DNA from: Patescibacteria group bacterium
GTDB taxonomy: Bacteria; Patescibacteriota; Microgenomatia; UBA1400; MFAQ01
Length of the DNA stretch: 42,158 bases
Direction of reading: 5' to 3'
Assembly: GCA_018819325.1 (NCBI GenBank)
Contig: JAHJQJ010000031.1
Location: 1 to 42,158, forward strand
Each line of letters begins with the position of its first letter. Position 1 is the first letter of the stretch. The notes under the pieces are model-generated. The model saw nothing but the letters and a program-made list of their open reading frames with translations. It had not been told where the DNA came from and searched no databases. The position numbers and the translations under genes were made by a program. This document shows positions 4,412 to 20,457 of the stretch, one piece after another.

Positions 4412-5155
4412 TTAAGAGTAGTAGTGGAGGATGCGGAGGCGGTAGAAGACGGCGGCGGTTTCCCAAAGCATTTGGTATATGGTTTTTAGGGTGGCGGCGG
4501 AGGTTAAGTTGCCTGATTGGAAGTTTAGTTTAATAGGGGCTTCATATATTCGTTTGAAACCTAAGTGATTGGCTACTGCTAAAAGTTCGATGTCGAAGGC
4601 GTAGTGTTTGACGACTAAACGGGGCAGGACCTTTTTTAGAACTTTGGCTCGGAAAAGTTTGATGCCTGCTTGGGTATCGGTAAGTTTGATGCCAAATAAG
4701 AGCTTGACTAAACGATGGTAGCCCCAGCTTAAGACTCGGCGATTAAAAGGATAGTTTATTTGGGAGGCCAAATGGCGTTTGGAGCCGACGATGATGTCTG
4801 CTTTGTACCATTCTAGATGTGCAAGAAGCATGGAAAGTCCGGCGGGGTCTATTTCTCTACCAGCGTCGATGAAGGCTATTAAGTCGCCTTTGGCCTTGGT
4901 GAAACCAAAACGGACGGCGTGGCCTTTGCCTTGGTTTTTTTTAAGTAGGTAGGTTTTGACGTTTGGCTTGTCCTGGGCGAAGGTTTTGGCTTTTTGATAG
5001 GTGGAATCAACGGCGCCGTCTACTATTATTATCATCTCGAATGGTTGGTTGGATTTGCCAAGAACTTGATAGATGTGTTTTAAGTCACCGGTGATGGTTC
5101 TTGCTTGTTTGTGGGCAGGAATGATGACTGATAAAAGTGTTGGTTTCATATACAA
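4412..5155 (-). CDS. Family 2 glycosyltransferase (polyprenyl-phosphate sugar synthase-like)
   Basis: LSVIIPAHKQ, IIIVDGAVDST, IAFIDAG. About 247 aa, soluble DPM1-like architecture. Confidence 0.8.
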   Translation of the reverse strand: MYMKPTLLSVIIPAHKQARTITGDLKHIYQVLGKSNQPFEMIIIVDGAVDSTYQKAKTFAQDKPNVKTYLLKKNQGKGHAVRFGFTKAKGDLIAFIDAGREIDPAGLSMLLAHLEWYKADIIVGSKRHLASQINYPFNRRVLSWGYHRLVKLLFGIKLTDTQAGIKLFRAKVLKKVLPRLVVKHYAFDIELLAVANHLGFKRIYEAPIKLNFQSGNLTSAATLKTIYQMLWETAAVFYRLRILHYYS

Positions 5156-5162
5156 TCTGACT

Positions 5163-6176
5163 ATGAAGTCTGTGAGTGTGATTATAGCGACATTTAATGC
5201 GGGAAGTGTGTTTGAAGAGTATCTGAAGAGTATTAAGAGTCAGGATTATGACCATAAAAAAATTGAGATTATTGTGGCGGATGGTGGATCGACGGATGGA
5301 ACTGTTGAGTTGGCCAAAAAATATGGTTGCAGGGTGATTATGGAAAAAACTGGTAGTCCGGAAGGAGCCAAGGCGGTAGCCTTGAAAAAGGCTAAAAACG
5401 AGTTAATATTGATAGGAGATAGTGATAATATCTGGCCTAGTAAGACTTGGCTTAAGAAAATGATAGAGAAAGATTCTGGACAAGCCAGAATGACGAAGGA
5501 GATACTGGCGGTTTATCCTTGGAGATATACGTATAGAAAAAAAGATAGTTTGATGAATCGGTATTTTGCTTTGTTGGGGGCCAATGACCCGGTGGTGTGG
5601 TTTTTGGGTAAAACAGATAGGCAGAGTTATTTATCTGATAAGTGGGGTCTGGGGGGCAAGCTAATTAAAGAAACAAAAAAATATTTTGTGGTGGAGTATA
5701 GCCAAGATAACTTGCCAACCGTGGGGGCTAATGGGTTTTTAATAAGGCGAAAAGATTTGTTAAAGGCCAAGGTGGGTGAGAAAGATTATTTTCATATAGA
5801 TGTAATTTTAGATTTAGTTAAGAAAAAACCTAGGAAATTTGTGGTTTTGAAGACTGACATTGTTCACAAGACCGGTGAGGACTTGGTAAGTTTTTTGAGG
5901 AAGCGTAGCAGGTACATGAGAGAGTTATATTTGCGGGATAGCTCTAGACGGAGGTATTTTATTTATAAACTTGGTAGGGATGAAGTTAAGACTTTGTGGT
6001 TCTCTCTATATGCTTTGAGTGTGGTGTTGCCATTGATAGACGCTATTAAAGGATATGTTAAAAAAAGAGATTTGGCCTGGTTTATGCACCCGGTGATGTG
6101 TTTTTGTATTTTTTGGGTGTATTTTTTAGTTGTGTTAAGGCACTTGTGGGAAGTTAAGATAAGAAATATATTATGA
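5163..6176 (+). CDS. Family 2 glycosyltransferase with C-terminal membrane segment
   Basis: The start is moved to ATG 5163 (MKSVSVIIATFNAG), because the upstream part of ORF 5073 overlaps the divergent gene. Motifs IIVADGGSTDGT and LIGDSDN. In-frame element at 5473-5495. Confidence 0.8.
   Translation: MKSVSVIIATFNAGSVFEEYLKSIKSQDYDHKKIEIIVADGGSTDGTVELAKKYGCRVIMEKTGSPEGAKAVALKKAKNELILIGDSDNIWPSKTWLKKMIEKDSGQARMTKEILAVYPWRYTYRKKDSLMNRYFALLGANDPVVWFLGKTDRQSYLSDKWGLGGKLIKETKKYFVVEYSQDNLPTVGANGFLIRRKDLLKAKVGEKDYFHIDVILDLVKKKPRKFVVLKTDIVHKTGEDLVSFLRKRSRYMRELYLRDSSRRRYFIYKLGRDEVKTLWFSLYALSVVLPLIDAIKGYVKKRDLAWFMHPVMCFCIFWVYFLVVLRHLWEVKIRNIL
5473..5495 (+). repeat. Short hairpin element (ATTCTGGACAAGCCAGAATGACG), in frame within a CDS
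   Basis: TTCTGG/CCAGAA stem. Identical to the right end of the 64-nt element at 29967-30030. Translated as DSGQARMT; the same peptide occurs in ORF 40491-41921. Confidence 0.8.
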
Positions 6177-6943
6177 AACCTAAATTATCGGTAGTTATCT
6201 GTACCAAGGGGAGAGATGAGACTTTAAAAGAAACCCTGGAGAGTTTAAAGAAACAGTCGTTTAAAAACTGGGAGTTGGTGGTGGTTAGGGAGACGCCTTT
6301 GTCTAAGGCTAGGGACTTGGGCTGGCGACGGAGTAAGGGAGAGATTGTGGCTTGGATTGATGATGATGTGGTTTTAGATAAAGACTGGGCTAAAAATTTA
6401 GTTAAGATTTTTGATGAGAATAAAGATGTGGGTGGGGTGAGTGGACCAACGATTGTGCCGGCTGACTTACTTAAAAACAGAATGGTGTTTTGGTGGTATG
6501 GAGCTAAGGGGTGGAAGAAGCCTTTGGCTTGGATTTGGAAACAGACAATGCTTAATGGTAAACCGTTTGCGGTTGGGAGAATTTGGAAGATTGGTTGGTG
6601 GTCGCCAGGGTCTAATTTTAAGGAGTGTTTGAAACTTAAGGGACTGCAAGAAGTTGACTATTTAGAGGCTTGCAACATGAGTTTAAGGAGGAGTTTGGTA
6701 AAAAAAGTGGGTGGGTTTGATTTAGGGTATGAAGGCACCAGTGAGTGGTGCGAGGTAGATTTAGCCATGAGAGTTGCTCGTTTAGGTCAAAATAAAGTGA
6801 ACGATCGTTCATGTAAGTTGGTGTGGAGCAGAGAGGTTAAATTAAAACACATGGTGAGTCGGGCGGGGGTGTATGTTGACAGACGACGATTGAAGGAGAG
6901 ATTTAAAAATTATTTTAGGTTTTATAGGAGGCATATTTTATGA
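6173..6943 (+). CDS. Family 2 glycosyltransferase
   Basis: LSVVICTKGR and VAWIDDDVV. 4-nt overlaps with both neighbouring genes. Confidence 0.8.
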   Translation: MKPKLSVVICTKGRDETLKETLESLKKQSFKNWELVVVRETPLSKARDLGWRRSKGEIVAWIDDDVVLDKDWAKNLVKIFDENKDVGGVSGPTIVPADLLKNRMVFWWYGAKGWKKPLAWIWKQTMLNGKPFAVGRIWKIGWWSPGSNFKECLKLKGLQEVDYLEACNMSLRRSLVKKVGGFDLGYEGTSEWCEVDLAMRVARLGQNKVNDRSCKLVWSREVKLKHMVSRAGVYVDRRRLKERFKNYFRFYRRHIL

Positions 6944-7917
6944 AAGTTTCAGTGGTGATTGCCAACAAGGATGGGGAAAGGTTTTTGAAGCGGTGTTTGG
7001 ATTCGATTTTGGTGGAGAAGGGGGATTATGAGGTGATTGTGGTGGATGACCCCGCACCACGTGGGGTGCAGGGCAAGCGGACCAATAGAGTAAGAAGAAT
7101 TGGGTTGCCGAGGAATGTGGGGGCGGCAGAGGCGAGGAATATTGGAGTTAAGAATTCAACAGGAGAGTATATTATGTTTTTGGATGTGGATACTAAGATT
7201 CAACCTGGTTGGTATAAGGAAGTTTTGAGTTTTTTTAAGAGAAATAAGAAAACCGGGGCGGCGCAGGTAAAGATTTTGAGGTTACGAACCTCAAACTTTG
7301 ACTCGGCTGGGGAGTTCATGGGGCCGTTTGGGTTTTTGATTGAACGGGCGAGGATGAGTGAGGATAAAGGCCAGTTTGACCAGGAAGATAAGATTTTTTC
7401 TGGTAAATCGGCGGGGATGATTATTAGGCGAGAGGTGTTTGAAAAATTAAACGGGTTTGATAGAGATTACTGGATTTTTTTAGAGGATACCGATTTATTT
7501 TGGAGAACTTGGTTGTTGGGTTGGGAAGTTAGATTTTGCCCAAAAATTGTGGTTGAACATGCGTACTTAACCAAAGAAAAACCAATGAAGTTTTATGTTG
7601 AGAATAAGGTGTTTTATAGAGGAGCAAGAAATACAATTATGAACTTGGTTAAAAATATAGAGGCTAAAAGATGGTGGGTGGTGTTAGTAAATGTGTTATG
7701 TTGGTTGGTGTTGGGGGTGGTGCTTTGTTTAAAGGGAGATTTTCAGCGTGGATGGGCAATGTTTGCTGGGGTGGGATGGAATATAATTAACTTGCCCAAG
7801 ACGTTAAAAAAAAGAATGGTGTGTGGTAATAAGTTGCCTGATGAAGTTATGGCAAAGCGGAGTTTAGGTTATTATTTAGGTAAGGCGAAAGCTTATGTTA
7901 CGGGAAAACCATTTTGA
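6940..7917 (+). CDS. Family 2 glycosyltransferase
   Basis: VSVVIANKDGE, VIVVDD, IMFLDVDT and a C-terminal TM helix. Element PE-D is inserted right after the VVDD motif. Confidence 0.8.
   Translation: MKVSVVIANKDGERFLKRCLDSILVEKGDYEVIVVDDPAPRGVQGKRTNRVRRIGLPRNVGAAEARNIGVKNSTGEYIMFLDVDTKIQPGWYKEVLSFFKRNKKTGAAQVKILRLRTSNFDSAGEFMGPFGFLIERARMSEDKGQFDQEDKIFSGKSAGMIIRREVFEKLNGFDRDYWIFLEDTDLFWRTWLLGWEVRFCPKIVVEHAYLTKEKPMKFYVENKVFYRGARNTIMNLVKNIEAKRWWVVLVNVLCWLVLGVVLCLKGDFQRGWAMFAGVGWNIINLPKTLKKRMVCGNKLPDEVMAKRSLGYYLGKAKAYVTGKPF
7050..7073 (+). repeat. Palindromic element PE-D variant (CCCCGCACCACGTGGGGTGCAGGG), in frame within a CDS
   Basis: GCACC/GGTGC stem. Translated as PAPRGVQG. Confidence 0.7.
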
Positions 7918-7932
7918 TAAGGCTACAATTTT

Positions 7933-8583
7933 TTGGAGAGATATAGAAGTAGGAGTGTTGAGAAAAAAGTTCCAGTTCCGAACTGGTTTTTTTTGGATTT
8001 AGGGTGTGGTGAAGGGGCGATAGCTAGAGCGGTTTTTGATAAGCCCCGCACCGGTCGGTGCAGGGTGATATGGGGGTTGGATAATGATAAAGAAATGGTA
8101 AAAAAGGCCAAGAAAAGCAGGATGTATAAAAAGGTGTTGTTGGCGGATGCGGGTAAGATTCCACTTGATGACGGAGTGGTGGATTTGGTGTTTAGCAACT
8201 CTGTTTTGGAGCATATAAAAGAGATAGATAAAGTTTTAAGTGAGATTAATAGGGTTTTGAAGCCTGGTGGGAGACTGGTTTTTACGGTGCCGAGTAACAA
8301 ATTAGGTGAGTATTTGGGTTGGGGTAGACTATATGCTTTTATTTTTAATAAAAAATATAATCATTATCATTTGTATGACCTGCCAAGATGGAAAAAGATC
8401 TTGGGCGGGCATGGTTTGAAGATAGTTAAGAGTAAAAGTTATTTAAGTAAGGAGGATGTTAGACATTGGCACAAGTTATTGTGGCAACAGAAATTAGGGT
8501 TGAAATCTAAGAATTTTACCGGTTACGAACCGGTAAGATTGGGGGCGGGGTTAGCGGTGGTAGCTAGAAAGAAAATAGTCTAG
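7933..8583 (+). CDS. Class I SAM-dependent methyltransferase (type 11)
   Basis: Motif I LDLGCGEGA and the post-I/II region VDLVFSNSVLEHI...LKPGGRLVF. Start uncertain. A PE-D insert follows motif I. Confidence 0.75.
   Translation: MERYRSRSVEKKVPVPNWFFLDLGCGEGAIARAVFDKPRTGRCRVIWGLDNDKEMVKKAKKSRMYKKVLLADAGKIPLDDGVVDLVFSNSVLEHIKEIDKVLSEINRVLKPGGRLVFTVPSNKLGEYLGWGRLYAFIFNKKYNHYHLYDLPRWKKILGGHGLKIVKSKSYLSKEDVRHWHKLLWQQKLGLKSKNFTGYEPVRLGAGLAVVARKKIV
8044..8068 (+). repeat. Palindromic element PE-D (CCCCGCACCGGTCGGTGCAGGGTGA), in frame within a CDS
   Basis: GCACC-N4-GGTGC hairpin. Translated as KPRTGRCRV. Confidence 0.8.
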
Positions 8584-9312
8584 ATCGGCGGGCGTGCCTA
8601 GTCGCCAGGCTTGTTTGGTAACGGCTATCTGGACTTTTTTGCCTTGATCTAGGAGTCGTTGATAGATTGGAGCTACGTAGAACTCTTGTTTGCCTTGTGG
8701 GCCTGAAACAAGGTTCTTTTTTATCATGTTTTCTACTTGGTCTACAAACGTTTTGGCTTTAGAAAAATAATAGGCGCCGATGTTTGAGTAGGCGCCTTGG
8801 GCGGCAAGAACTGGATCTTTTTCGGCTATTTTAATGGCATATTTATTATCTGGTGCTAGAGAGTAGCTGTGTTTTATTTCGTTGTCTATGGGAGTGTCTA
8901 CTGGAATTACTCCAACAGTATCGCTGTCTTTATTTTTAATGGTTTGGCAAAATATCTGGCCATTGAAGTAGTGATCCGAGTCGGAGATGATGATGTCTTC
9001 ATTTGGATCTACGGTTTTGGCGGCTATCAAGGCAGTTTCGGCCGCACCCCTAGTAGCCTTGGAAATAGAGATTACTTGGATTTTTGGACTGAACAGAGAT
9101 TTTAATTTTGGTTCTAGTTGGTGTTGTTTGAGAGTAACGAAAATAAAATCGTTTGGAGTGAGATTGAAGGAGGAAAGAGAGTCTATGGCCCAGTTAATCA
9201 TGGGTTTGCCTAAAACATTAATTAAAGGTTTGGGTTTTTTGAACTCTGGATTTAGATGGGCGGCAACGGAGAAACGAGAACCATGACCGGCCATGGGGAT
9301 GATAACTTTCAT
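8551..9312 (-). CDS. Sugar-phosphate nucleotidyltransferase
   Basis: N-terminal MKVIIPMAGHGSRF (GxGxR signature) with a Rossmann-like layout, 253 aa. Confidence 0.7.
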   Translation of the reverse strand: MKVIIPMAGHGSRFSVAAHLNPEFKKPKPLINVLGKPMINWAIDSLSSFNLTPNDFIFVTLKQHQLEPKLKSLFSPKIQVISISKATRGAAETALIAAKTVDPNEDIIISDSDHYFNGQIFCQTIKNKDSDTVGVIPVDTPIDNEIKHSYSLAPDNKYAIKIAEKDPVLAAQGAYSNIGAYYFSKAKTFVDQVENMIKKNLVSGPQGKQEFYVAPIYQRLLDQGKKVQIAVTKQAWRLGTPADLDYFLSSYHR

Positions 9313-9352
9313 GAGAGTTATTATAGCTGTAAATTGATGGTAGAATGCCCAT

Positions 9353-9781
9353 ATGATATTGATTGCTCACAGGGGAAACCTAAAAGGACGAAATATAAAG
9401 GAGGAGAATGAACCTGGATATGTGGGCAAGGCTTTGGAAAAAGGTTTTGATGTTGAGATTGATGTTTGGTTTAAAGATAATGGTTGGTGGTTGGGTCACG
9501 ATGAACCACAATATAAGACAAATTTAGAATTCTTAAAAACCAAGGGTTTGTGGTGTCATGCAAAAAACTTGTCTGCTTTAGAAAAAATGCTTGAGAACAA
9601 GGTTCATTGTTTTTGGCATGAGGAAGATGAAAGAGTGCTAACATCTAAAGGGTTTGTCTGGACATACCCCGGTAAAGCTTTGGGTAAAAATTCTATTGCG
9701 GTGATGCCGGAGCAAGTGAGCGGTTGGGATATTTCTAAGGCTTTGGGAGTTTGCAGTGATAATTTAATGAAATATAAATAA
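9353..9781 (+). CDS. Small glycerophosphodiester-phosphodiesterase-like (GDPD/PLC-like) protein
   Basis: LIAHRGN...EN...GFDVEIDVW...GHDEP resembles the N-terminal catalytic half of GDPD enzymes. Only 142 aa. Confidence 0.45.
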   Translation: MILIAHRGNLKGRNIKEENEPGYVGKALEKGFDVEIDVWFKDNGWWLGHDEPQYKTNLEFLKTKGLWCHAKNLSALEKMLENKVHCFWHEEDERVLTSKGFVWTYPGKALGKNSIAVMPEQVSGWDISKALGVCSDNLMKYK

Positions 9782-10104
9782 TGAAGATTAATAAATTAAA
9801 GAACATGAAGGGCGGGTGGTTTGTGGGTGATTTTGTGCCAAGTGTGTTTAGAACCAAGGATTTTGAGGTGGCGTATATGACTCACTATAAGGGTCAGGAA
9901 TGGCCGAAGCATTATCATAAAGTAGCGAGTGAGATTAATTATTTAATTAGAGGAAAGATGAAGATAAATAGAGAGATATTGGAGGAAGGGGATATTTTCG
10001 TGATTGAGCCTGGGGAGGTGGTAAAGCCTGAATTTATGAGTGACTGTGAGTTAATAGTGGTTAAAACGCCAAGTGTGGTAGGAGATAAATATGAGATTGA
10101 ATAG
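9781..10104 (+). CDS. Cupin-fold protein
   Basis: 107 aa with HYHK...E...GD...P.G pattern typical of small cupins. Its start overlaps the upstream stop codon. Confidence 0.45.
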   Translation: MKINKLKNMKGGWFVGDFVPSVFRTKDFEVAYMTHYKGQEWPKHYHKVASEINYLIRGKMKINREILEEGDIFVIEPGEVVKPEFMSDCELIVVKTPSVVGDKYEIE

Positions 10105-11269
10105 AAAGAAATACAACAAAAATAAGTATCTGGTGGTGGAGTATTTTTTGCAGTCTAAGACCAGTTTGCAAGAGGCGGCTTGGGCGATTGCGGTGGGACA
10201 AAGTATTGGTAATCCCAATGTGCGTAATGGTTGGGAGACAAAGGAGTTGGTTGAAAAACATGTGGCGTTGATATTGGCAGAAAAAGAAAAGTTAGAGAAG
10301 GAAAAACAGGGAAGAGTGAAAATTGCTTTTCCTTTGGCGAATATTAACCTGAAGGAAGATGGAGTGAGTCAGTTGTTGGTGCAGATAATGGGGGGGCAGT
10401 TGGATATAGGGATAATTAACAAGTGTTTTGTAGAGGATATTGAATTACCAAATGATTTTAGGTTTTTTAAGCCCAAATTTGGCGTTGAAGGGATTAGAAA
10501 GTTCACAGAAGTTTATAACAAGCCTTTGTTGGGAGGAATAATAAAACCCAAGGTGGGGTTGAGGCCAAAACAGTTGTTGGAAGTGGTTAAAGAAATGGTG
10601 GAAGGCGGGGTTAATTTTATTAAGGAAGACGAGATAATGGCTAACCCTGATTGTTGCCCATTGGAAGAACGAGTAAGTTTAGTGATGAAGTACTTGAAAG
10701 GTAAAAGGGTGATATATGCGGTGTGTGTGAACGGGGATTATCCGTATGTAATTGATAGGGTGAAAAAGGTTTATAAACTGGGTGGTAACGCGGTGCATGT
10801 GAACTGGTGGGCTGGTTTTGGGGTGTATAAGGCTATTAGAGAGTTGGATTTGCCTTTGTTTTTGTTTTTTCAGAAAAGTGGGGATAAGATAATTACTAAC
10901 GAGAAACACGCGTTTCATATTAAATGGAAGGTGATGTGTAAGTTGGCGGGCATGATGGGGGTGGACATGATTCATGCCGGTATGTGGGGAGGGTATTTAA
11001 GTGATGATCAAAAGAGTTTGAAAGAAATAATGGATGAGTTGTCTAGTCTGGGTGTGTTACCGTCTTTGAGTTGTGGGATGCACCCTGGTTTGGTGGGGGT
11101 TGTAAGCAAAAAATTTGGGGTGGATTACTTGGCTAACGTAGGTGGGGCGATTCATGGCCACCCGGGTGGTACCAAGGCTGGGGCGATGGCTATGAGACAG
11201 GCGATTGATGGGGTGGAAGGCAAAGAGTATGGTTTGGCGGTAAAAAAATGGGGGAAAGTTGCATTTTAA
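10091..11269 (+). CDS. RuBisCO large-subunit superfamily protein, probably a RuBisCO-like protein (form IV-like)
   Basis: GGIIKPKVGL (K175/K177 equivalents), GGVNFIKEDE (K201, D203, E204 equivalents) and GGAIHGHPGGTKAGAMAMRQA. By eye alignment, the E60/T65/W66 region reads AVGQSIGNP, the N123 region reads MGG, the H294-R295 region reads FFQKSG, and the K334 position is GG. Confidence 0.7.
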   Translation: MRLNRKKYNKNKYLVVEYFLQSKTSLQEAAWAIAVGQSIGNPNVRNGWETKELVEKHVALILAEKEKLEKEKQGRVKIAFPLANINLKEDGVSQLLVQIMGGQLDIGIINKCFVEDIELPNDFRFFKPKFGVEGIRKFTEVYNKPLLGGIIKPKVGLRPKQLLEVVKEMVEGGVNFIKEDEIMANPDCCPLEERVSLVMKYLKGKRVIYAVCVNGDYPYVIDRVKKVYKLGGNAVHVNWWAGFGVYKAIRELDLPLFLFFQKSGDKIITNEKHAFHIKWKVMCKLAGMMGVDMIHAGMWGGYLSDDQKSLKEIMDELSSLGVLPSLSCGMHPGLVGVVSKKFGVDYLANVGGAIHGHPGGTKAGAMAMRQAIDGVEGKEYGLAVKKWGKVAF

Positions 11270-12194
11270 TGGCTCTTAAAACAAACATTAATTGGATTTT
11301 TGCAAATTGGTAGTAATGATTTGGTTTAGTCCATAGTTGTGGAAAAACTTTTTTAGCTACTTGGTTGGCAGCAAAAACACGATTAAATTCTAGCTTGGCA
11401 AGATAAAGGTTGGTGCTGGCCAGACTCATGAAAATATTTTCTAGAATAAAGTCTTCATTGTTGGTGAAGTGTTTGATTAATTTGAAATATCGTTCTAGTT
11501 TTTCTGTTCGGTTGGCAACAGTTTTGACTGCTTTTTTAGTTTCAAAAGTTTGTTCTGGATGGGATCTGTGAAAGAAGAGAACCGATTTTTGATAATAAAG
11601 ACTTGATTTTTTGGCGATTTTTAGAAATATGTCTACGTCGGCCTCTGTTTTATATTTTTCTACGAAGGGACCAACTGATTTTAGGTTTTTAAGTTCAAAA
11701 ACGGTGGCGCCGGTAGGAGCAATAATGGGGCAGTGGTGTTTTACAAGTTGAGAAATGGTTTGAGAGGGGGGAAGATAGGTGTTTTTTGGAAAGGTGTGAT
11801 AAATAATTTTTGGTTTGTTATTGATGTCGATAATACAGATGGAGCAGTGGTAGAAGTCAGCTGGGTTGTTTTTGATGGTTTTGAGCCATACTTGATGCCA
11901 AGTGGGGGCGATGAGATCGTCACTATGTAGGAAGCTTATATGGGTGCCGGTGGCTAGTTTAATGCATTGGTTGTAGTTGCCGACCATGCCAAGATTTGTT
12001 TTGTTGCGATGGTATTTGATACCGTATTCCTTGTATTTTTTGACTACTTGGGGGGTGTCGTCGGTGGAGGCGTTGTCTATAACTATGACTTGGTGAGGGC
12101 GGGTGGTTTGAGCAATTACGCTTTGCAGAGTTTGGTCTAGTAGGTCGGCGCGGTTAAAGGTTGGAATAGTAAGGGAAATTTTGATTTTATTCAT
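11190..12194 (-). CDS. Family 2 glycosyltransferase
   Basis: ISLTIPTFNRA, VIVIDNASTDDT, ISFLHSDD. The 3' end overlaps the convergent RLP gene by 80 nt. Confidence 0.8.
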   Translation of the reverse strand: MNKIKISLTIPTFNRADLLDQTLQSVIAQTTRPHQVIVIDNASTDDTPQVVKKYKEYGIKYHRNKTNLGMVGNYNQCIKLATGTHISFLHSDDLIAPTWHQVWLKTIKNNPADFYHCSICIIDINNKPKIIYHTFPKNTYLPPSQTISQLVKHHCPIIAPTGATVFELKNLKSVGPFVEKYKTEADVDIFLKIAKKSSLYYQKSVLFFHRSHPEQTFETKKAVKTVANRTEKLERYFKLIKHFTNNEDFILENIFMSLASTNLYLAKLEFNRVFAANQVAKKVFPQLWTKPNHYYQFAKIQLMFVLRAIKMQLSPIFLPPNHTLCLPPHQSPVS

Positions 12195-13069
12195 TGAAGC
12201 AAGTATTGTTTTAGGAAGATTTTTTGGAGTTTGGGGTTAACAACCTGCCTTTTTTTAAGAGCAGGAAAGGGGTTAAGCCAACCGGAAAGGTAGCCAGAAA
12301 GACCGTAAAATAGAGCTTTAATTGAACGGCGGCGGAGGGGTAAAAGTAGGATCCAGATTAGGTCGCGGGCGATGAGAAGGGGGATGAATTTAGCGGAGAA
12401 ATGCTTGAGATTGAGCCAAACTTTGTTGCGGGCGCTTAGAATGATGAGATTTTTTCTTAAGGTGGCGGAGGGTTTTTCGAAGTGGTCGACAACTATGTCT
12501 TTTTGGAAGCTGATACTTAGGTTTTGGTTTAGGGTTCTTAGGCCAAAATCGTCTTCGTGGATCCAGCAGAAAAAGTCTTGGTCGTAGTAACCTATTTTTT
12601 TGAAAGCCTTTTTTCTAAAAACACAGGCGCCGGTGGAGAAATTAAGGATGTGGGCTTTTCTTTGGTTGGTTTGAGCTTCTGCATAAAAGCTGTTGGTTAA
12701 GGGATTGAAGCGGGTGAGAGATAAAACGGCTGTTTTGCTGGGTTGGTTTTGGAAGCAGGTAACTATTTTTTGCAAGGTGTGTTTTCTTATGCCAGAGTCG
12801 TCGTCTAGGCTTAGGATATATTTACCCTGGGCGTTTATATAGCCGATGTTAAAACCTAGCATGCCGGTGTTTTGGGGCATGATAATAAAGGTAATTTTGG
12901 GAAATCTGGTTTTGATTGTGGAGGCAAGGTGGGGGTTGAGGCTATTATCTACCACAATAATTTCGAAGTTTTTGTAAGTGGATTGGTAAACGGAGTTTAT
13001 TAGACGAATAAGAGAACGGGTGCGATGGGGGCTGGCGACGGTGACGATGGAGATTAAGGGACAAGTCAT
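12191..13069 (-). CDS. Family 2 glycosyltransferase
   Basis: ISIVTVASPH, IIVVDNS, ILSLDDDS. Start placed at ATG 13069 (MTCPLISIV), preceded by TATAAT-N6; the longest ORF start is 13108. Confidence 0.75.
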   Translation of the reverse strand: MTCPLISIVTVASPHRTRSLIRLINSVYQSTYKNFEIIVVDNSLNPHLASTIKTRFPKITFIIMPQNTGMLGFNIGYINAQGKYILSLDDDSGIRKHTLQKIVTCFQNQPSKTAVLSLTRFNPLTNSFYAEAQTNQRKAHILNFSTGACVFRKKAFKKIGYYDQDFFCWIHEDDFGLRTLNQNLSISFQKDIVVDHFEKPSATLRKNLIILSARNKVWLNLKHFSAKFIPLLIARDLIWILLLPLRRRSIKALFYGLSGYLSGWLNPFPALKKRQVVNPKLQKIFLKQYLLQ

Positions 13070-13075
13070 AGAGAT

Positions 13076-13081
13076 ATTATA
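13076..13081 (-). promoter_or_regulatory. -10 box TATAAT, 6 nt upstream of ATG 13069 (candidate leaderless promoter)
   Basis: The minus strand reads TATAAT-ATCTCT-ATG. No Shine-Dalgarno sequence is possible in that spacing. Confidence 0.4.
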
Positions 13082-13094
13082 GCGTGGTGGGTGA

Positions 13095-13100
13095 TATAAT
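13095..13100 (+). promoter_or_regulatory. Extended -10 box (TGaTATAAT), 6 nt upstream of ATG 13107 (candidate leaderless promoter)
   Basis: The plus strand reads TGATATAAT-TTGGCC-ATG, mirroring the divergent promoter. Confidence 0.4.
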
Positions 13101-13106
13101 TTGGCC

Positions 13107-13853
13107 ATGCGAGATGGACGATTAAAAAAAATGCGTAAAAAACCTAAGGTGGTAGTGGTTTTGCCGGCTTACAATGCCGAAAAGACCCTGGAAAAGACGG
13201 TGAGAGATATTCCTAAAAATGTGGTGGGTGAGATCATTTTGGTTGACGATAGTAGCGTGGACAAAACGGTGGCCTTGGCTAGAAAGCTGAAACTTAAGGT
13301 TACCAAGCACAAACAAAACAAGGGTTATGGAGGCAACCAGAAGACTTGTTACCGACTGGCTCTTAAGAGTGGGGCGGATATTGTGGTGATGATTCACCCT
13401 GATTATCAGTATGATCCGCGGCTGATTAAACACTTTGTGGAGTTTATTAGAGATGGATATTTTGACGTGATGTTGGGGTCGAGGATTCGTACCCGAAGAG
13501 AGGCACTGGAAGGTGGAATGCCGGTTTATAAATACTTGGGTAACAGGGTCTTGACCTTTTTGGAGAACTTAGTTAGTGGTCAGAGTTTGTCGGAGTGGCA
13601 CACAGGGATGAGGGCTTACAGGCGAGAGGTGCTGGAGGCGATTGATTTTAAGGGAAATTCTGATGATTTTGTGTTTGATAGCCAGGTGTTATTTCAGATT
13701 GTTGAAAAAGGTTTTCAAATTGGAGAAATTCCTGTGCCGGTGCGTTATTTTGCTGAGGCCTCTAGCATTGATTTTTGGCGTAGTGTTAAGTATGGTTTGG
13801 GGACGGTGGAGGTGGCGATGAATTATTGGTTTAGACAACGCAATAATGGCTAG
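13107..13853 (+). CDS. Family 2 glycosyltransferase (dolichyl/polyprenyl-phosphate sugar synthase-like)
   Basis: [35 protein letters not shown]. Alternative starts are TTG 13101 and ATG 13131. Confidence 0.8.
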
Positions 13854-15216
13854 GGTGTTGTTGGTTAGTTTACCTTCGAAGAAACTGGTGTATTTGGAAA
13901 CTAATGTGCGGGTGGGGGCTCCGAGTTACCCTTGTTTGACGTTGGCAACTTTGGCGGGGCACTTGGTTGGGAAACATAAAGTAAGAGTGGTTGACTTGGA
14001 CTTGGTGGTGGATGCCTGGACAGAACTTAAGCGGCAAGTTAGATATTTTAAACCAGAAGTGATGGTGGTATCGGCTAAGACACCAGTTTATCCGATAGCG
14101 GTGGAGCTTATAACGAGATTGAAAGAGGCTTATCCTAAAATTACTACCATAATTGGCGGGGTGCACGCTACCATTTGTCAGAAGGAAGTCTTGGCTGAGG
14201 GTTGTTTTGATATTGTGGTAGTAGGAGAGGCGGATTTTGCTTTAGAAACGATATTGAAAGAAAAGAATTTGGGGAAGTTTAAGGGAAAGATTTTTAAAGA
14301 TAAAAAAAGCCCGATTAAGAATTTGAATGATCTGCCTCTGCCAGCGTGGGGGTTATTTGATTTGGAGAAGTATAAAAACTCGAGGTTGTCTTGCCGGAAA
14401 AACCCGGCTGGTTTGATGGAGACGAGCAGGGGTTGTGCATATAGTTGTAATTTCTGCTGCAAGGATATCTTTGGAACGGCCTACCGGATGAAAAGTGTTA
14501 AGAGGGTGGTTGACGAGATGGAGTATATGCTTGAGTGTGGGTTTAAGGAGATTCATATAGCTGACGACAGTTTTACCCAAGATATTGATAGAGCTAAAAA
14601 GATTTGCCTGGAAATTATTAGGCGAGGGCTAAAATTCCCTTGGTCTTTGATAAACGGGATTAGGGTGAATTTTACCGATAGGGAATTTTTTAGGTTGGCC
14701 AAGAAGGCTGGTTGTTGGCAGACGGGGTTTGGGATCGAGTCGGGTGATCAAAAGGTGCTTGACGGGGTGGGTAAGGGGATAAAGTTAGCTCAGATTAGAA
14801 AGGCGGTGAGGCAGGCTGAAGAGGAAGGAATCGAGAGTTTTGGGTTTTTTATTTTAGGGCTTTTGGGGGAGACGGAAAAGTCGATGGAGAAAACGATTAA
14901 GTTTGCTAAAAGTTTGCCGTTGTCGACGGCTAAGTTTGATTTGTGTATTCCCTATCCGGGTACTGGTTATTACAAATTACTTAAGGCACAGGGGAGAATT
15001 TTGAGCTGGGATTGGCTGGAGTACAGGTTACATCAGATTAAAAAACCGCTGTTTAAGCACGAAAATCTGGATTGGGAAACGATAGGTAAGTATTATAAAA
15101 AGGCATTTAGACAGTTTTATCTTAGGCCTGCGTATATTTGGAGGCGGTTGAAAAGGGATTTGATTAAGGGGGATTTATGGTATGACTTTGGTTATTTATT
15201 GAGGTCGAGATGGTAG
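13846..15216 (+). CDS. B12-binding-domain radical SAM enzyme
   Basis: N-terminal Rossmann-like B12-binding region (RVLLVSLPS...VVVGEADF) followed by the radical SAM cluster motif [14 protein letters not shown] (CxxxCxxC). Confidence 0.75.
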
Positions 15217-16127
15217 TAAAAAGATGTCTACACCGAAGGGCAAGGGTTTATATCAATTTTGAGAAGGAGAGGTTGTTTAAGTGTGAGCTGTGTGGTTTGG
15301 TTTTTAATCGGGTCATGAAGACAAAACCTGAAAAACTTTATAAAAACTATTACCGAAATGAGATTGGTGGTCGATTTGGCTTGGGAATCGAATCTGTGAT
15401 TAAAATGTTTAGGTTTTTTAGAGCTTTTAAAGTGTGGTTGATTGTTGGACGGTTGGACAGATCTGTTTTGGATGTAGGTAGCGGGAGAGGGTTTATGCTT
15501 TATTATTTAAGAAAGTATTTTGGTTTTAAGAAAGTAGTTGGAACACAAATCTCTAAGCCGGCCCTGGAGTTTTCTAGGCGACGTTTGGGGTTGACAGTTT
15601 ATGACGGAGACTTAATAAAATTAAAATTACCCAGTGGAAGTTTTAACGTAATAACCATTTGGCACGTTTTGGAGCACGTAAAGGACCCCGAAGGTTATTT
15701 GGCCGAGATGCGTCGTTTGTTAAAAAGGGGAGGAAAATTAGTGGTAGAGGTGCCTAATTTTGCGTCTTGGACGAGGAAGTGGACGGGTTGTTATTGGTTA
15801 GGACTGGACTTGAAGTATCATTTGAGTTTTTTTGACTATGAAAGTTTGGAGGGGTTATTAGAAAAATATGGATTTATGGTTAAAAAACGGCATAATTTTT
15901 CTTTGGAGTACTCTAGTTTTATTTCTAGTCAGAGTATTATTAGCTGGTTGACTAAGTCCGATCAAGTTTTTTTTAATTGGTTGCAGAAGCCTGATTGGGA
16001 TTGGCGGATTTTGTTTTATGGAAGTTTGTTCTTGGTTTTGATGCCGTTGTGTTTTTTGGTTAATATTTTGTTATATTTCTCTAACAGGGGTGAGGTGTTG
16101 CTATTAGTGGCAGAAAAATTAAAATGA
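15210..16127 (+). CDS. Class I SAM-dependent methyltransferase with C-terminal membrane helices
   Basis: Motif I VLDVGSGRGF, plus FNVITIWHVLEHV and LKRGGKLVVEVP. Confidence 0.75.
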   Translation: MVVKRCLHRRARVYINFEKERLFKCELCGLVFNRVMKTKPEKLYKNYYRNEIGGRFGLGIESVIKMFRFFRAFKVWLIVGRLDRSVLDVGSGRGFMLYYLRKYFGFKKVVGTQISKPALEFSRRRLGLTVYDGDLIKLKLPSGSFNVITIWHVLEHVKDPEGYLAEMRRLLKRGGKLVVEVPNFASWTRKWTGCYWLGLDLKYHLSFFDYESLEGLLEKYGFMVKKRHNFSLEYSSFISSQSIISWLTKSDQVFFNWLQKPDWDWRILFYGSLFLVLMPLCFLVNILLYFSNRGEVLLLVAEKLK

Positions 16128-17674: not shown

Positions 17675-17768
17675 TGATTATATATAATGACGGACGTGGA
17701 TGAGGGAAACAGGTGGATTATTAGGGGTGAGAAAAACTAGGCGATGCTTTGTGGTTTAAAATTGAGTA

Positions 17769-18557
17769 ATGAGGATGTATTGTGTTGTTTGTGGTGAGAA
17801 GTCAGATAAGAATAAGTTTATTTTTAGAAAGATATTGACTGATGGTTTGGTTTTGGATTGGGGTTTGACTGATAAACAAAGGCGGGGAAGAGACGAGAAA
17901 GAGTCTATGTTTTGCCCGGTGTGTAGCAGTTCAATGAGGTCTAGGGCTTTGGCTAGGGGAATAATGGAATCAAGATTTTTTAAGGGCGTAAATAACTTGA
18001 CTGAGTGGGTGGAAGTGGCTTCTAAAGTTGGGCTTAAGGTGGCGGAGATAAATTATTGTGGTGATTTGCACCCTATATTGAATAAACTACCTGGTTTGGT
18101 TCTGAGCCAGTATAGCGAGGTTAGTTTTAGGGCTAGGTTTTTTAATTGGTTGAAAGGAGTTAAAAAGGAGGATATTACAAACCTTTCATACGAAGATAAT
18201 AGTTTTGACTTGGTAGTTCATAGTGAAGTTTTAGAACATGTATATGATGTGGACAGGGCCTTAAGTGAGTGTGGGAGGATATTGAAACCTAATGGGGTTT
18301 GTGTGTTTACCATACCGGTAATAATGAGAAGAAAGACGATTAAAAGAGCAGAGGTTGATAGAGAAACTGGTGAGATTAAGTACTTGCTTAAACCTTCATA
18401 TCACGGATCTGGAGAAAAGAATAATTTAGTTTTTTGGGAATTTGGAGGTGATTTTATAAAGAATAGAGGGTTGAAAGTGTTGTTTGGGTCTTCCCAAAAC
18501 GGTGTGTATGTTTTTATTATTAACAAAGGTGAGACCTTGGTTAAGAATCGAGGATGA
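17769..18557 (+). CDS. Class I SAM-dependent methyltransferase with N-terminal Cys-pair zinc-ribbon-like motifs
   Basis: CVVCGE...CPVCSS, then NSFDLVVHSEVLEHV and LKPNGVCVFTIP. The last 9 codons are encoded by a REP-B copy. Confidence 0.7.
   Translation: MRMYCVVCGEKSDKNKFIFRKILTDGLVLDWGLTDKQRRGRDEKESMFCPVCSSSMRSRALARGIMESRFFKGVNNLTEWVEVASKVGLKVAEINYCGDLHPILNKLPGLVLSQYSEVSFRARFFNWLKGVKKEDITNLSYEDNSFDLVVHSEVLEHVYDVDRALSECGRILKPNGVCVFTIPVIMRRKTIKRAEVDRETGEIKYLLKPSYHGSGEKNNLVFWEFGGDFIKNRGLKVLFGSSQNGVYVFIINKGETLVKNRG
18520..18544 (+). repeat. REP-B palindrome copy (TTAACAAAGGTGAGACCTTGGTTAA)
   Basis: Contains the stop codon of RAYT-2 (minus strand) and the 3' end of the methyltransferase gene (plus strand). 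Confidence 0.85.
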
Positions 18558-19194: not shown

Positions 19195-19217
19195 GATTTT
19201 ATTGTAGCAAATTAACT

Positions 19218-19242
19218 TTAACAAAGGTGAGACCTTGGTTAA
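19218..19242 (+). repeat. REP-B palindrome copy
   Basis: 23 nt upstream of the RAYT-2 start (minus strand). Same sequence as 18520-18544. Confidence 0.85.
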
Positions 19243-19789: not shown

Positions 19790-19814
19790 TTAACAAAGGT
19801 GAGACCTTGGTTAA
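19790..19814 (+). repeat. REP-B palindrome copy between convergent genes
   Basis: Same 25-mer. It overlaps the stop codon of gene 19811-20452. Confidence 0.85.
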
Positions 19815-20452: not shown

Positions 20453-20457
20453 GGGTA

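What the first reader, a model, noticed from the sequence alone, without database searches (positions are those of the whole stretch)
8551..11269. RuBisCO-like protein in an operon with a cupin and a GDPD-like protein inside a glycosylation island
ORF 10091-11269 clearly belongs to the RuBisCO large-subunit superfamily. It retains the KPK, the carbamylation/metal triad K-x-D-E and the C-terminal GHPGG...RQA. By eye alignment it has lost the equivalents of E60, T65/W66, N123, H294/R295 and K334. That points to a form IV RLP rather than a carboxylase of the CPR form II/III or III-like AMP-salvage type. It overlaps, and is probably co-translated with, a small cupin and a 142-aa GDPD-like protein, next to a sugar nucleotidyltransferase and between GT2 genes. 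No AMP phosphorylase, R15P isomerase or methionine-salvage genes are nearby. Characterised RLPs catalyse enolisation-type chemistry on sugar phosphates or keto-acid sugars, so this could be a sugar-modifying step for a glycan precursor.
Basis: partly seen in the sequence, partly recalled or inferred. Interest (0 to 1): 0.6.

Follow-up and report, generated by a model that had tools for sequence, protein, structure and literature searches.

The report
RuBisCO-like enzyme in sugar-activation cassette
A tiny groundwater bacterium carries a RuBisCO relative that cannot fix CO2. The gene sits in a mobile cassette with a nucleotide-attaching enzyme, a small metal-binding cupin and a miniature phosphodiesterase, and the same cassette recurs in hundreds of viruses and many microbes, so this branch of the family probably builds an activated sugar-like unit for surface glycans.

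Summary
ORF 10091-11269 is an intact 392-aa RuBisCO large-subunit homologue (PF00016 7e-35; AF2 pLDDT 94; TM 0.89 to Pyrococcus form III). It keeps K175/K177/K201/D203/E204/H327/S379/G381/G403/G404. It has lost E60, T65/W66, N123, H294, H298 and K334 (an invariant Tyr in the clade).

It belongs to the "form IV-like" clade of Jaffe et al. 2019 (Beckwithbacteria plus phage scaffolds; function unknown). That clade is monophyletic and separate from MtnW, OiaX-type RLPs and form III.

The RLP overlaps a cupin by 14 nt. The cupin overlaps a 142-aa mini-GDPD by 1 nt. A nucleotidyltransferase is transcribed divergently.

This gene set recurs in 48 cellular loci: CPR, SAR11, DPANN, Legionella, Nonomuraea and others. 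At least 386 IMG/VR contigs encode an RLP of the clade, and the set recurs in the 80 viral loci examined. Fusions link the parts: NTase-RLP, RLP-NTase, RLP-NTase-cupin, cupin-NTase and NTase-GDPD.

New details:
- The window's NTase is the GDPD-linked paralogue, not the RLP-fused one.
- Legionella pairs RLP-NTase with LicD.
- RLP-less CPR cassettes put a xylulokinase-like kinase or a HAD/IMPase pair in the RLP's place.

The likeliest role is an enolising step that supplies a keto-sugar phosphate for nucleotide activation. The chemistry is untested. This scan has met the cassette many times before on other DNA.

The parts
10091..11269 (+). RuBisCO-like protein (P0001, 392 aa), 'form IV-like' clade. 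Enolisation core kept, carboxylation residues lost.
   Evidence: Pfam and NCBIfam. PDB search. AF2 model and Foldseek. Tree. Residue alignment. A 64%-identical homologue shares a 90% cluster with a sequence named 'Form IV-like'.
9781..10104 (+). Small cupin (P0002, 107 aa) with the metal motif G-x5-H-x-H-x4-E-x6-G. It overlaps the RLP start by 14 nt.
   Evidence: Cupin_2 25.4 bits, just under the cut-off. H44 and E51 are invariant and H46 nearly so. The family profile matches cupin structures, including a small mannose-6-P isomerase at 7.6e-5. Found next to the RLP in 64/80 viral and 19/51 cellular loci. Fused to the NTase, and to RLP-NTase.
9353..9781 (+). Miniature GDPD-like phosphodiesterase (P0003, 142 aa), about 60% of a GDPD barrel with the catalytic motifs intact.
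   Evidence: No Pfam hit alone. H6, R7, E35, D37, H49, H69, K71 and D92 are invariant in the family. The profile matches GDPD 7e0v at 1.6e-4. ESM Atlas model pLDDT 0.95, TM 0.78 to a GDPD cluster. Full-length homologues in other loci pass the Pfam GDPD cut-off.
8551..9312 (-). Sugar-phosphate nucleotidyltransferase (P0004, 253 aa), beta (GDPD-associated) paralogue of the cassette NTase family. Transcribed divergently.
   Evidence: PF12804 27.3 bits. The family profile matches PDB 4evw at 2.9e-35, then GMP/RmlA/GalU-type enzymes. 30% identical (1e-33) to the NTase domain of an NTase-RLP fusion. Tree placement. It is the only NTase of this family in the genome.
9313..9352 (.). 40-nt divergent intergenic region between the NTase and the three-gene operon.
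   Evidence: Sequence. The consensus promoter scan found nothing above chance.
4412..18557 (.). Surrounding glycan island: seven GT2 genes, four methyltransferases, a B12-radical SAM enzyme and a 516-aa unknown, bracketed by two IS200-like Y1 transposase genes (3717-4388 +, 18541-19224 -).
   Evidence: Pfam scans. No SDR dehydratase and no second NTase were seen among the island ORFs scanned.

Best explanation
The RLP is a catalytically competent, non-carboxylating member of the 'form IV-like' RuBisCO clade. It works in a four-part cassette with a nucleotidyltransferase, a small metal cupin and a mini-GDPD. The cassette makes an unusual nucleotide-activated sugar or sugar-like phosphate, which the neighbouring glycosyltransferases and methyltransferases put onto a surface glycan.

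Proposed mechanism (inferred):
1. The RLP uses its retained carbamylated-Lys/Mg2+ site (K178, D180, E181) and K152/K154 to enolise a phosphorylated keto-sugar. The phosphate is held in the conserved P1 pocket (S327, G329, G351, G352). A pentulose phosphate is the leading guess for the substrate. The RLP isomerises or epimerises it.
2. The cupin performs a second metal-dependent isomerisation.
3. The NTase couples the resulting phosphate ester to an NMP.
4. The mini-GDPD handles a phosphodiester step that is still unassigned.

Shown here: fold, residue pattern, clade, conserved linkage, fusions, accessory (mobile) distribution.
Inferred: the order of steps, the substrate class and the product.
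For: (1) The catalytic core is under selection. K152-P-K154, K178-E-D180-E181, Q261, H295, Y302, S327, G329 and G351/352 are invariant or nearly so across 26 members down to 33% identity.

(2) Linkage.
- An NTase of one family lies beside the RLP in about 46 of 51 cellular loci and 78 of 80 viral loci.
- The mini-GDPD is present in 73/80 viral loci and the cupin in 64/80.
- The dominant order is NTase-cupin-RLP-GDPD, in 32/80 viral loci.

(3) Rosetta-stone fusions:
- NTase-RLP (P0056, P0096, P0099).
- RLP-NTase (P0124).
- RLP-NTase-cupin (P0393, P0394).
- About 20 cupin-NTase fusions.
- NTase-GDPD (L016).

(4) The context is always glycan or nucleotide-sugar genes: GT2, WavE, SDR epimerase/dehydratase (41/80 viral loci), DegT, TylF/CmcI-type and FkbM methyltransferases, NeuB, sulfotransferases.

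(5) In four Legionellaceae the minimal set is RLP-NTase diverging from a LicD-family transferase. By established knowledge, LicD enzymes take the phospho-group of an NDP-activated donor.

(6) RLP-less CPR cassettes built on the same NTase pair, GDPD and cupin carry other feeders where the RLP would be. One has a xylulokinase-like FGGY kinase (XylB best, 245 bits, below cut-off). Another has a beta-phosphoglucomutase-like HAD plus an IMPase-like phosphatase. This fits an RLP that feeds a sugar phosphate to the NTase.

(7) In this island P0004 is the only NTase, and no other sugar-forming enzymes were found.

(8) Weak: contigs from a groundwater RNA library match 10133-11332 and other parts of the locus with no mismatch. 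DNA carry-over is not excluded.
Against: - No enzyme of this clade has been assayed. Substrate, product and step order are inference.
- The NTase family looks more like glycosyl-1-phosphate NTases (GMP, RmlA, GalU: 1e-11 to 1e-7) than like polyol- or ketose-phosphate cytidylyltransferases (IspD 1e-4, LicC 5e-4). An acyclic keto-sugar phosphate is therefore not the obvious substrate.
- The window's NTase is the beta paralogue, not the alpha one that is fused to RLPs. The coupling in this genome is thus one step less direct.
- The cassette lacks a recognisable mutase or kinase, and the role of the mini-GDPD is unexplained.
- A basic residue at the R295 position (K/R in 26/26) and H327 are kept. 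The substrate may therefore carry a second anionic group, which the pentulose-5-P guess does not explain.
Confidence: 0.6

Rival explanations
1. The RLP acts after the NTase, on a nucleotide-linked keto-sugar such as an NDP-4-keto-6-deoxyhexose made by a co-located SDR. There it would work as a 3,4-ketoisomerase or epimerase through an enediolate, with the diphosphate held in the P1 pocket.
For: - Fusions exist in both orders, so step order is open.
- SDR epimerase/dehydratases, DegT aminotransferases and sugar O-methyltransferases are frequent neighbours in viral loci.
- The NTase resembles glycosyl-1-phosphate NTases.
- Loss of the loop-6 Lys and of the N-domain residues that close over P1 could open room for a nucleotide (inference).
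Against: - The window's island, the Legionella loci and many others have no SDR dehydratase near the cassette. No keto group would then be available on an NDP-aldose.
- RLP-less cassettes replace the RLP with kinase or phosphatase-type feeders that act before an NTase.
Confidence: 0.2
2. The product is not a glycosyl donor but an NDP-activated phospho-head-group, a ketose or polyol phosphate by analogy with CDP-ribitol, CDP-xylulose/arabinitol and CDP-choline. It would be transferred as a phosphodiester substituent, and the GDPD-like enzyme would trim or remodel that phosphodiester. This is a sub-variant of the best explanation that differs in product type.
For: - A LicD-family transferase sits next to RLP-NTase in four Legionellaceae.
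- GDPD-type phosphodiesterases are near-constant partners and are fused to the beta NTase.
- A xylulokinase-like kinase occurs in an RLP-less cassette.
- P0004 has weak IspD and NTP_transf_3 hits.
Against: - LicD is absent from this genome and from most loci. Here GT2s are the transferases.
- The NTase profile prefers sugar-1-P enzymes over IspD or LicC.
Confidence: 0.3
3. The RLP serves salvage or catabolism (methylthioadenosine/5-deoxyribose salvage of the MtnW or R. rubrum type, or apiose-type acid-sugar breakdown) and merely happens to sit in the glycan island.
For: - All characterised RLPs are salvage or catabolic enzymes (Jaffe 2019 introduction).
- An RLP-cupin pairing is also known from the R. 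rubrum/R. palustris MTA-isoprenoid shunt (papers listed).
- A radical SAM enzyme, which would produce 5'-deoxyadenosine, lies 2.6 kb away.
Against: - Scores fall far below the MtnW and OiaX cut-offs: 165/409, 134/514 and 143/700 bits.
- The clade is separate in the tree.
- The Lys that serves as general base in MtnW (at the N123 position) is Gly here.
- The genome has no MtnA/IF-2B.
- Linkage and fusion to the NTase hold across more than 120 loci from unrelated hosts and viruses.
Confidence: 0.05
4. It is a bona fide form III/III-like carboxylase of the nucleotide (AMP) salvage pathway.
For: - The best single PDB and NCBIfam hits are form III enzymes.
- The KPK and KxDE motifs are kept.
Against: - E60, T65, N123, H294, H298 and K334 are all replaced.
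- It scores 171 bits against the 497-bit cut-off.
- The 86%-complete genome has no AMP phosphorylase or R15P isomerase.
- The clade is split from form III with 99% SH-aLRT support.
Confidence: 0.01

Closest known systems
'Form IV-like' RuBisCO-related clade (Jaffe, Castelle, Dupont & Banfield 2019, Mol Biol Evol 36:435; PMC6389311)
   Same: Same clade. P0001 is 64% identical to P0010 (KKS79553.1, Candidatus Beckwithbacteria). P0010 shares a 90% cluster with VDD89117.1, which is named 'RuBisCO long chain, Form IV-like'. As in the paper, the clade joins Beckwithbacteria with many phage scaffolds and branches outside the other RLPs.
   Different: The paper left the function open and discussed lateral transfer. 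It did not report the NTase/cupin/GDPD linkage, the fusions, or the spread to SAR11, DPANN, Legionella and giant-virus contigs seen here.
MtnW/YkrW 2,3-diketo-5-methylthiopentyl-1-phosphate enolase (form IV-YkrW)
   Same: Same fold. Both keep the carbamylated-Lys/Mg2+ site and the P1 phosphate pocket. Similar HMM scores (2oej 2e-37). Enolisation without carboxylation is the likely shared chemistry.
   Different: Below both MtnW cut-offs and in a separate clade. MtnW has lost K177 and H327 and uses a Lys at the N123 position. This clade keeps KPK and H327 and has Gly there. No methionine-salvage genes are present.
R. rubrum/R. palustris DeepYkr RLP (5-methylthioribulose-1-P 1,3-isomerase) with its cupin partner in the MTA-isoprenoid shunt (PMC4958253, PMC5893883; found, read only as title and abstract)
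   Same: An RLP working in series with a small cupin on a pentulose phosphate. The product there (DXP) later reaches an IspD-type cytidylyltransferase (own knowledge).
   Different: That pathway is salvage, not glycan synthesis. No fusion to an NTase is known for it. The cupin there is a methylsulfurylase, and nothing here points to thio-sugars.
CDP-ribitol (TarI/TarJ), CDP-xylulose/CDP-arabinitol (AbpA/AbpB) and CDP-choline (LicC/LicD) head-group pathways (own knowledge; LicD seen)
   Same: The logic is a phosphorylated small unit, then an NTase, then an NDP-activated donor, then a transferase. Pentulose 5-phosphates can be NTase substrates. LicD neighbours the RLP-NTase pair in Legionella.
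   Different: Those pathways use a reductase or a kinase as the feeder, never an RLP. Their NTases are IspD/LicC-type, whereas this NTase family is closest to PDB 4evw and to sugar-1-P NTases.
Type II phosphomannose isomerase/GDP-mannose pyrophosphorylase (NTase + cupin bifunctional enzymes; own knowledge)
   Same: NTase-cupin fusions occur in about 20 of 80 viral cassettes. The cupin profile weakly matches a small mannose-6-P isomerase structure (7zvm, 7.6e-5).
   Different: The fused ORFs carry both a cupin and an NTase part; the order of the two parts was not determined here. The cupin is much smaller and lacks the second-motif His. The match to PMI is no better than the match to quercetinase cupins.

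Membership tests
RuBisCO large-subunit superfamily | N-terminal alpha/beta domain plus C-terminal TIM barrel (PF02788 + PF00016) | tested here: met
   Both Pfam domains are above their cut-offs. AF2 pLDDT 93.8 and TMq 0.89 to 2d69.
RuBisCO large-subunit superfamily | Activator Lys and metal ligands (K201, D203, E204) and K175 | tested here: met
   K178, D180, E181 and K152 are invariant in 26/26 clade members.
Bona fide RuBisCO (forms I-III, II/III, III-like) | Full set of carboxylation and RuBP-binding residues: E60, T65, N123, H294, R295, H298, K334 | tested here: not met
   The positions read G36, N41, G102, Q261, K262, D265 and Y302 in the alignment with a form III enzyme that passes its cut-off.
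Bona fide RuBisCO (form III) | NCBIfam TIGR03326 equivalog cut-off (497 bits) | tested here: not met
   171 bits.
Bona fide RuBisCO (form III AMP pathway) | Partner genes AMP phosphorylase and R15P isomerase in the genome | tested here: not met
   No TIGR03327 or PF01008 match in the 86%-complete genome. Absence is not proven in an incomplete genome.
MtnW/YkrW enolase | NCBIfam equivalog cut-offs (NF007095 409 bits, TIGR03332 514 bits), and a Lys general base at the N123 position | tested here: not met
   165 and 134 bits. Gly at that position. Separate clade.
OiaX-type RLP (3-oxo-isoapionate-4-P decarboxylase) | NF042437 cut-off of 700 bits | tested here: not met
   143 bits. The OiaX-like clade is separate in the tree.
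'Form IV-like' clade (Jaffe et al. 2019) | Groups with the Beckwithbacteria and phage sequences, outside the other RLP clades | tested here: met
   A 31-row clade with 99% SH-aLRT support, split from the 90 other rows. 64% identity to P0010, whose 90% cluster holds a sequence named 'Form IV-like'. 386 viral contigs encode relatives.
'Form IV-like' clade (Jaffe et al. 2019) | Biochemical activity | not testable with these tools
   No activity is assigned in the papers searched.
GDPD (glycerophosphodiester phosphodiesterase, PF03009), for P0003 | Catalytic H-R-G, E-x-D and H-D motifs | tested here: met
   H6, R7, E35, D37 and H49 are invariant in 29 family members. They align to the same motifs of 7e0v.
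GDPD (PF03009), for P0003 | Complete (beta/alpha)8 barrel of about 240 aa, and the Pfam gathering score | tested here: not met
   142 aa and no Pfam hit. Only profile positions 2-52 match GDPD structures. The Atlas model aligns 140 residues to a 225-aa GDPD, with TM 0.78 by query and 0.52 by target.
Cupin superfamily, for P0002 | Motif 1, G-x5-H-x-H-x3,4-E-x6-G, and the beta-barrel | tested here: met
   The motif is readable in the sequence. H44 and E51 are invariant and H46 nearly so. Cupin_2 scores 25.4 against a 27.2 cut-off. The profile matches cupin structures at 1e-5. The second-motif His is absent.
Sugar-phosphate nucleotidyltransferase (PF00483/PF12804), for P0004 | N-terminal G-x-G-x-R-f motif and the Rossmann-like NTase fold | tested here: met
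   PMAGHGSRF at the N-terminus. PF12804 27.3 against a 27.0 cut-off. The family profile matches 4evw at 2.9e-35 and many RmlA/GMP/GalU structures.
Sugar-phosphate nucleotidyltransferase, for P0004 | Substrate and nucleotide specificity | not testable with these tools
   The closest structure, 4evw, has no paper describing its function in the library searched.

The most novel reading that the evidence does not exclude
This clade gives the RuBisCO superfamily its first anabolic role that is not CO2 fixation. It would be the committed enolisation or rearrangement step of a previously undescribed nucleotide-activated sugar (or ketose/polyol-phosphate) pathway. That pathway would be carried on a mobile cassette that tailed phages, giant viruses, SAR11, CPR bacteria, DPANN archaea and Legionella use to decorate their surfaces. 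The kinase-fed and HAD/IMPase-fed cassettes of other CPR bacteria would be non-orthologous routes to the same or a similar donor.
Probability: 0.5. Interest if true: 0.8.

Novelty: new variant of a known kind. Interest (0 to 1): 0.65.

Why it matters
Every RuBisCO-like protein with a known function works in salvage or catabolism. A large, mostly viral clade wired to nucleotide-sugar machinery would add a biosynthetic function to one of the most studied enzyme families. It would also point to an unknown sugar or phospho-substituent on the surfaces of very abundant organisms: SAR11, marine and freshwater phages, CPR bacteria and DPANN archaea.

The cassette also sits in cultured bacteria, so the hypothesis can be tested with ordinary genetics, LC-MS and enzymology. 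These are Legionella nautarum, L. drozanskii, L. maceachernii, Nonomuraea rosea and Azospirillum oleiclasticum. For RuBisCO evolution, the clade shows which parts of the active site persist when carboxylation is lost (Lys carbamate, metal ligands, K175/K177, H327, the P1 pocket) and which parts are replaced by new invariant residues (Q at position 294, Y at position 334).

Tried and rejected
- **Complex prediction, RLP (A1) with NTase (A4):** score 0.02, no verdict. It counts neither for nor against binding.
- **AF2 of the mini-GDPD from a single sequence:** pLDDT 41.6, unusable. I relied on the ESM Atlas model figures instead.
- **phmmer of P0003 alone against PDB:** only chance-level chitotriosidase hits. 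The family profile was needed.
- **tblastn of the RLP against GenBank phage records (INPHARED):** no match, in contrast to IMG/VR. No isolated phage with the gene was found.
- **Consensus promoter/terminator scan of 8400-11500:** nothing above the shuffled expectation.
- **Literature searches:** RLP + nucleotidyltransferase/cupin, form IV-like + phage + polysaccharide, IV-GOS, RLP + nucleotide sugar, and 4EVW. Only Jaffe et al. was relevant.
- **Read laying:** parts of the locus without cover in the RNA-library contigs (7000-7867, 12208-12641) and the near-empty runs X12 and X3 are not interpreted.
- **MTA-isoprenoid-shunt analogy (RLP + cupin, then DXP, then IspD):** considered and dropped. 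The genome has no MtnA/IF-2B, and the NTase is closer to sugar-1-P enzymes than to IspD.
- **Glycerol-3-P supply (GDPD or kinase, then an NDP-glycerol-type donor):** considered as the constant theme, but it gives the RLP no role. The FGGY kinase scores better as xylulokinase than as glycerol kinase.

Full report
**What is in the sequence.**
Window 8551-11269 holds four intact genes:
- a 253-aa nucleotidyltransferase on the minus strand (8551-9312, P0004);
- after a 40-nt divergent spacer, a 142-aa protein (9353-9781, P0003);
- a 107-aa cupin (9781-10104, P0002);
- a 392-aa RuBisCO-like protein (10091-11269, P0001).

The stop of P0003 and the start of the cupin share one base (TAATG). The cupin and the RLP overlap by 14 nt, and an AGGAG lies 6 nt before the RLP start.

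Around them lie seven GT2 glycosyltransferases, four methyltransferases and a B12-binding radical SAM enzyme. The whole island is bracketed by two IS200-like transposase genes.

**The RLP is real and is not a carboxylase.**
- P0001 hits both RuBisCO large-chain Pfam domains above their cut-offs.
- Its best solved relatives are Pyrococcus form III RuBisCO (6e-39) and Geobacillus MtnW (2e-37).
- An AF2 model built on 26 clade members has pLDDT 93.8 and superposes on 2d69 with TM 0.89.
- It falls far below every NCBIfam equivalog cut-off: form III 171/497 bits, MtnW 165/409 and 134/514, OiaX 143/700.

I aligned it with a form III enzyme that passes its cut-off, with MtnW and with an OiaX-like RLP.
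- Retained positions: K175, K177, K201, D203, E204, H327, S379, G381, G403/G404.
- Replaced positions: E60 to G36, T65/W66 to N41/P42, N123 to G102, H294 to Q261, H298 to D265, K334 to Y302.
- R295 is conservatively K262.

Across 26 members down to 33% identity, the retained residues and the new Q261 and Y302 are invariant. Position 262 is always K or R. This pattern indicates an active enzyme that keeps the enolisation core and the P1 phosphate pocket but has lost the carboxylation residues.

**Which clade.**
A maximum-likelihood tree used 121 full-length superfamily members. These were representatives found by an exhaustive HMMER search plus clade members. The tree puts P0001 in a 31-row clade with 99% SH-aLRT support. 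That clade is split from all 90 other rows, which include clades labelled by NCBIfam as MtnW, OiaX-like and form III.

P0001 is 64% identical to P0010 (KKS79553.1, Candidatus Beckwithbacteria). P0010's 90% cluster also holds VDD89117.1, which its depositors named "RuBisCO long chain, Form IV-like". This is the clade that Jaffe et al. 2019 described from Beckwithbacteria and about 80 putative phage scaffolds. They placed it as an outgroup to other RLPs and called its function unclear. I found no later paper that assigns a function.

**Distribution.**
- The clade is very large: more than 2,800 database proteins below 1e-10.
- Among one-genome-per-species contigs it appears in Beckwithbacteria, many SAR11/Pelagibacter, Planctomycetota, Verrucomicrobiota, Saccharibacteria, Bacteroidota and Elusimicrobia.
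- It also appears in DPANN archaea (Woese-, Pace-, Nano-, Micrarchaeota) and in a Turneriella.
- Cultured carriers are Nonomuraea rosea, Azospirillum oleiclasticum, Legionella nautarum, L. drozanskii and L. maceachernii.
- IMG/VR holds at least 386 viral contigs with it, including 190-520-kb phage contigs and giant-virus MAGs.
- None of 40 relatives of the window's own genome has it: 2 of the same genus, 22 of the same family and 16 of the same order.
- The Nonomuraea copy sits between integrase and transposase genes.

It is an accessory, laterally moving gene. The organism is a groundwater CPR bacterium (873 kb assembly, 86% complete). It is probably a Beckwithbacterium, judging from the best named hits.

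**The cassette.**
I called ORFs in 51 cellular and 80 viral loci and searched them with iterated profiles of the four window proteins.
- An NTase of the P0004 family lies beside the RLP in about 46/51 cellular and 78/80 viral loci.
- The mini-GDPD is in about 35/51 cellular loci (short or full-length form) and 73/80 viral loci.
- The cupin is in 19/51 cellular and 64/80 viral loci.
- The commonest order, NTase-cupin-RLP-GDPD on one strand, accounts for 32 of 80 viral loci.

Gene fusions tie all four together:
- NTase-RLP (P0056, P0096, P0099). The N-terminal part of P0056 is 30% identical to P0004, 1e-33.
- RLP-NTase (P0124).
- RLP-NTase-cupin in one 813-817-aa chain (P0393, P0394).
- About twenty cupin-NTase fusions.
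- NTase-GDPD (L016).

Other neighbours vary, but they are always glycan or nucleotide-sugar genes: GT2, WavE, SDR epimerase/dehydratases, DegT aminotransferases, TylF/CmcI-type and FkbM methyltransferases, NeuB and sulfotransferases. This level of linkage across unrelated hosts and viruses is far beyond chance.

**The partners.**
- *NTase.* The family profile matches PDB 4evw, an uncharacterised "NDP-sugar pyrophosphorylase", at 2.9e-35. It then matches mannose-1-P, glucose-1-P and GlcNAc-1-P NTases (1e-11 to 1e-7). IspD and LicC score only around 1e-4.
- *Cupin.* The family keeps a His-x-His...Glu metal motif but no second-motif His. It matches generic cupins, among them a small mannose-6-P isomerase.
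- *Mini-GDPD.* The family keeps all the GDPD catalytic motifs in a chain about 60% of normal length. The ESM Atlas holds a confident model of it, with TM 0.78 to a GDPD cluster. Full-length homologues in other loci pass the Pfam GDPD cut-off.
- In the Atlas, both small-protein families are mostly viral.

**Points that go beyond the general picture.**
1. The NTases fall into two paralogous groups.
   - An alpha group lies next to, or fused with, the RLP or cupin. It covers viruses, the downstream NTase of SAR11, DPANN, Legionella and both fusion types.
   - A beta group lies next to, or fused with, a GDPD.
   - The window's P0004, like those of two other Beckwithbacteria-type loci (L001, L005), is a beta NTase. 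The genome has no alpha copy. This lineage therefore carries a rearranged cassette.
2. In four Legionellaceae the minimal module is RLP-NTase diverging from a LicD-family transferase, outside any glycan island. By established knowledge, LicD enzymes transfer the phospho-group of an NDP-activated donor.
3. CPR genomes that lack the RLP have cassettes built on the same alpha-beta NTase pair, a GDPD and even the same cupin family (6e-39), but with a different feeder.
   - One has a beta-phosphoglucomutase-like HAD, a HIT protein and an IMPase-like phosphatase.
   - Another has an FGGY kinase that scores best as xylulokinase (245 bits, below cut-off) and a histidine phosphatase.
   - If these are alternative feeders, the RLP's job is to deliver a sugar phosphate to the NTase, and a pentulose phosphate is a reasonable guess.

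**How it most likely works.**
*Shown:* an intact enolisation-type active site, obligatory association with an NTase, and a glycan context.

*Inferred:* the RLP binds a phosphorylated keto-sugar through the P1 pocket. It forms an enediolate on the Lys-carbamate/Mg2+ site and releases an isomer or epimer. The cupin adds a second metal-dependent isomerisation. The NTase then makes the NDP-linked donor, which GT2s use here and LicD uses in Legionella.

The mini-GDPD step is unassigned. The basic residue kept at the R295 position hints at a second anionic group on the substrate.

Alternative readings are listed as rivals. The RLP may act on an NDP-4-keto sugar after the NTase. The product may be a phosphodiester head-group rather than a glycosyl donor. 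A salvage role and true carboxylation are both poorly supported.

**Expression.**
A groundwater metatranscriptome library yields contigs identical to the locus. One 1.2-kb contig covers 10133-11332 of the RLP. Contigs cannot exclude DNA carry-over, so this is only a hint.

**Relation to earlier notes of this scan.**
The scan has met this cassette many times on other DNA, including phages, giant-virus contigs, SAR11 and CPR bacteria. Those follow-ups reached the same general reading. I re-derived the linkage, fusions and clade assignment independently before reading them. The additions here are the alpha/beta NTase split, the RLP-less feeder cassettes, the triple fusion and the LicD family scores.

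One earlier first-reader note placed a His at position 294. In my alignment, the His that most clade members carry aligns with H292, and position 294 is an invariant Gln.

**Verdict.**
The gene is a new member of a clade that has been named but not characterised. The cassette it belongs to points to an undescribed biosynthetic use of the RuBisCO fold. The chemistry remains to be shown.

Noticed in passing
window 1-34000 (and L001, L005): Extreme strand-wide GC skew. (G-C)/(G+C) is 0.40-0.55 on the + strand whatever the gene orientation; minus-strand genes 19811-21747 give 0.55-0.58. Related Beckwithbacteria-type loci show 0.39 and 0.28, whereas other carriers of the cassette are near 0-0.15. 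This is far above usual bacterial replication skew. The cause is unknown.
   Followed up: partly
window 35274-39980 (-): The 1568-aa ORF has almost no GC skew (0.06), in contrast to the rest of the window. It may be recently acquired DNA.
   Followed up: no
window 3717-4388 (+) and 18541-19224 (-): Two IS200-like Y1 transposase genes in opposite orientation bracket the glycan island. This fits the RLP being absent from all 40 relatives searched.
   Followed up: partly
window 11190-11269: The RLP and the convergent GT2 gene (11190-12194, -) overlap by 80 nt at their 3' ends. In the 78%-identical relative L001 the overlap is 4 nt.
   Followed up: no
P0192 (583 aa): A TIR domain fused to a complete RuBisCO-family protein (TIR_2 3e-13 + RuBisCO_large 1e-45). 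It lies outside the clade studied here and groups with other uncharacterised RLP-like rows. It could be a defence-type fusion.
   Followed up: no
P0158, P0182 (726 and 742 aa): IF-2B (R15P isomerase/MtnA-type) domain fused to a form III-like RuBisCO. This is a Rosetta stone for the pentose-bisphosphate pathway and is unrelated to the cassette.
   Followed up: no
L137, L138, L139 (CPR contigs): Tandem, 4-nt-overlapping alpha and beta NTase genes in RLP-less cassettes. They might form a hetero-oligomeric NTase. Not tested.
   Followed up: no
L040 (Nonomuraea rosea JCM 17326), 7492-12938: A compact island holding mini-GDPD, RLP, cupin, NTase, GT2, an AdoHcyase_NAD-like dehydrogenase and a weak dNK-like kinase, flanked by two integrases and a transposase. 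This is a self-contained version of the cassette in a cultured actinomycete.
   Followed up: partly
window 13846-15216: A B12-binding radical SAM enzyme lies next to the cassette here and in the close relative L001. It may C-methylate the glycan or its precursor. It is not conserved in other lineages.
   Followed up: no
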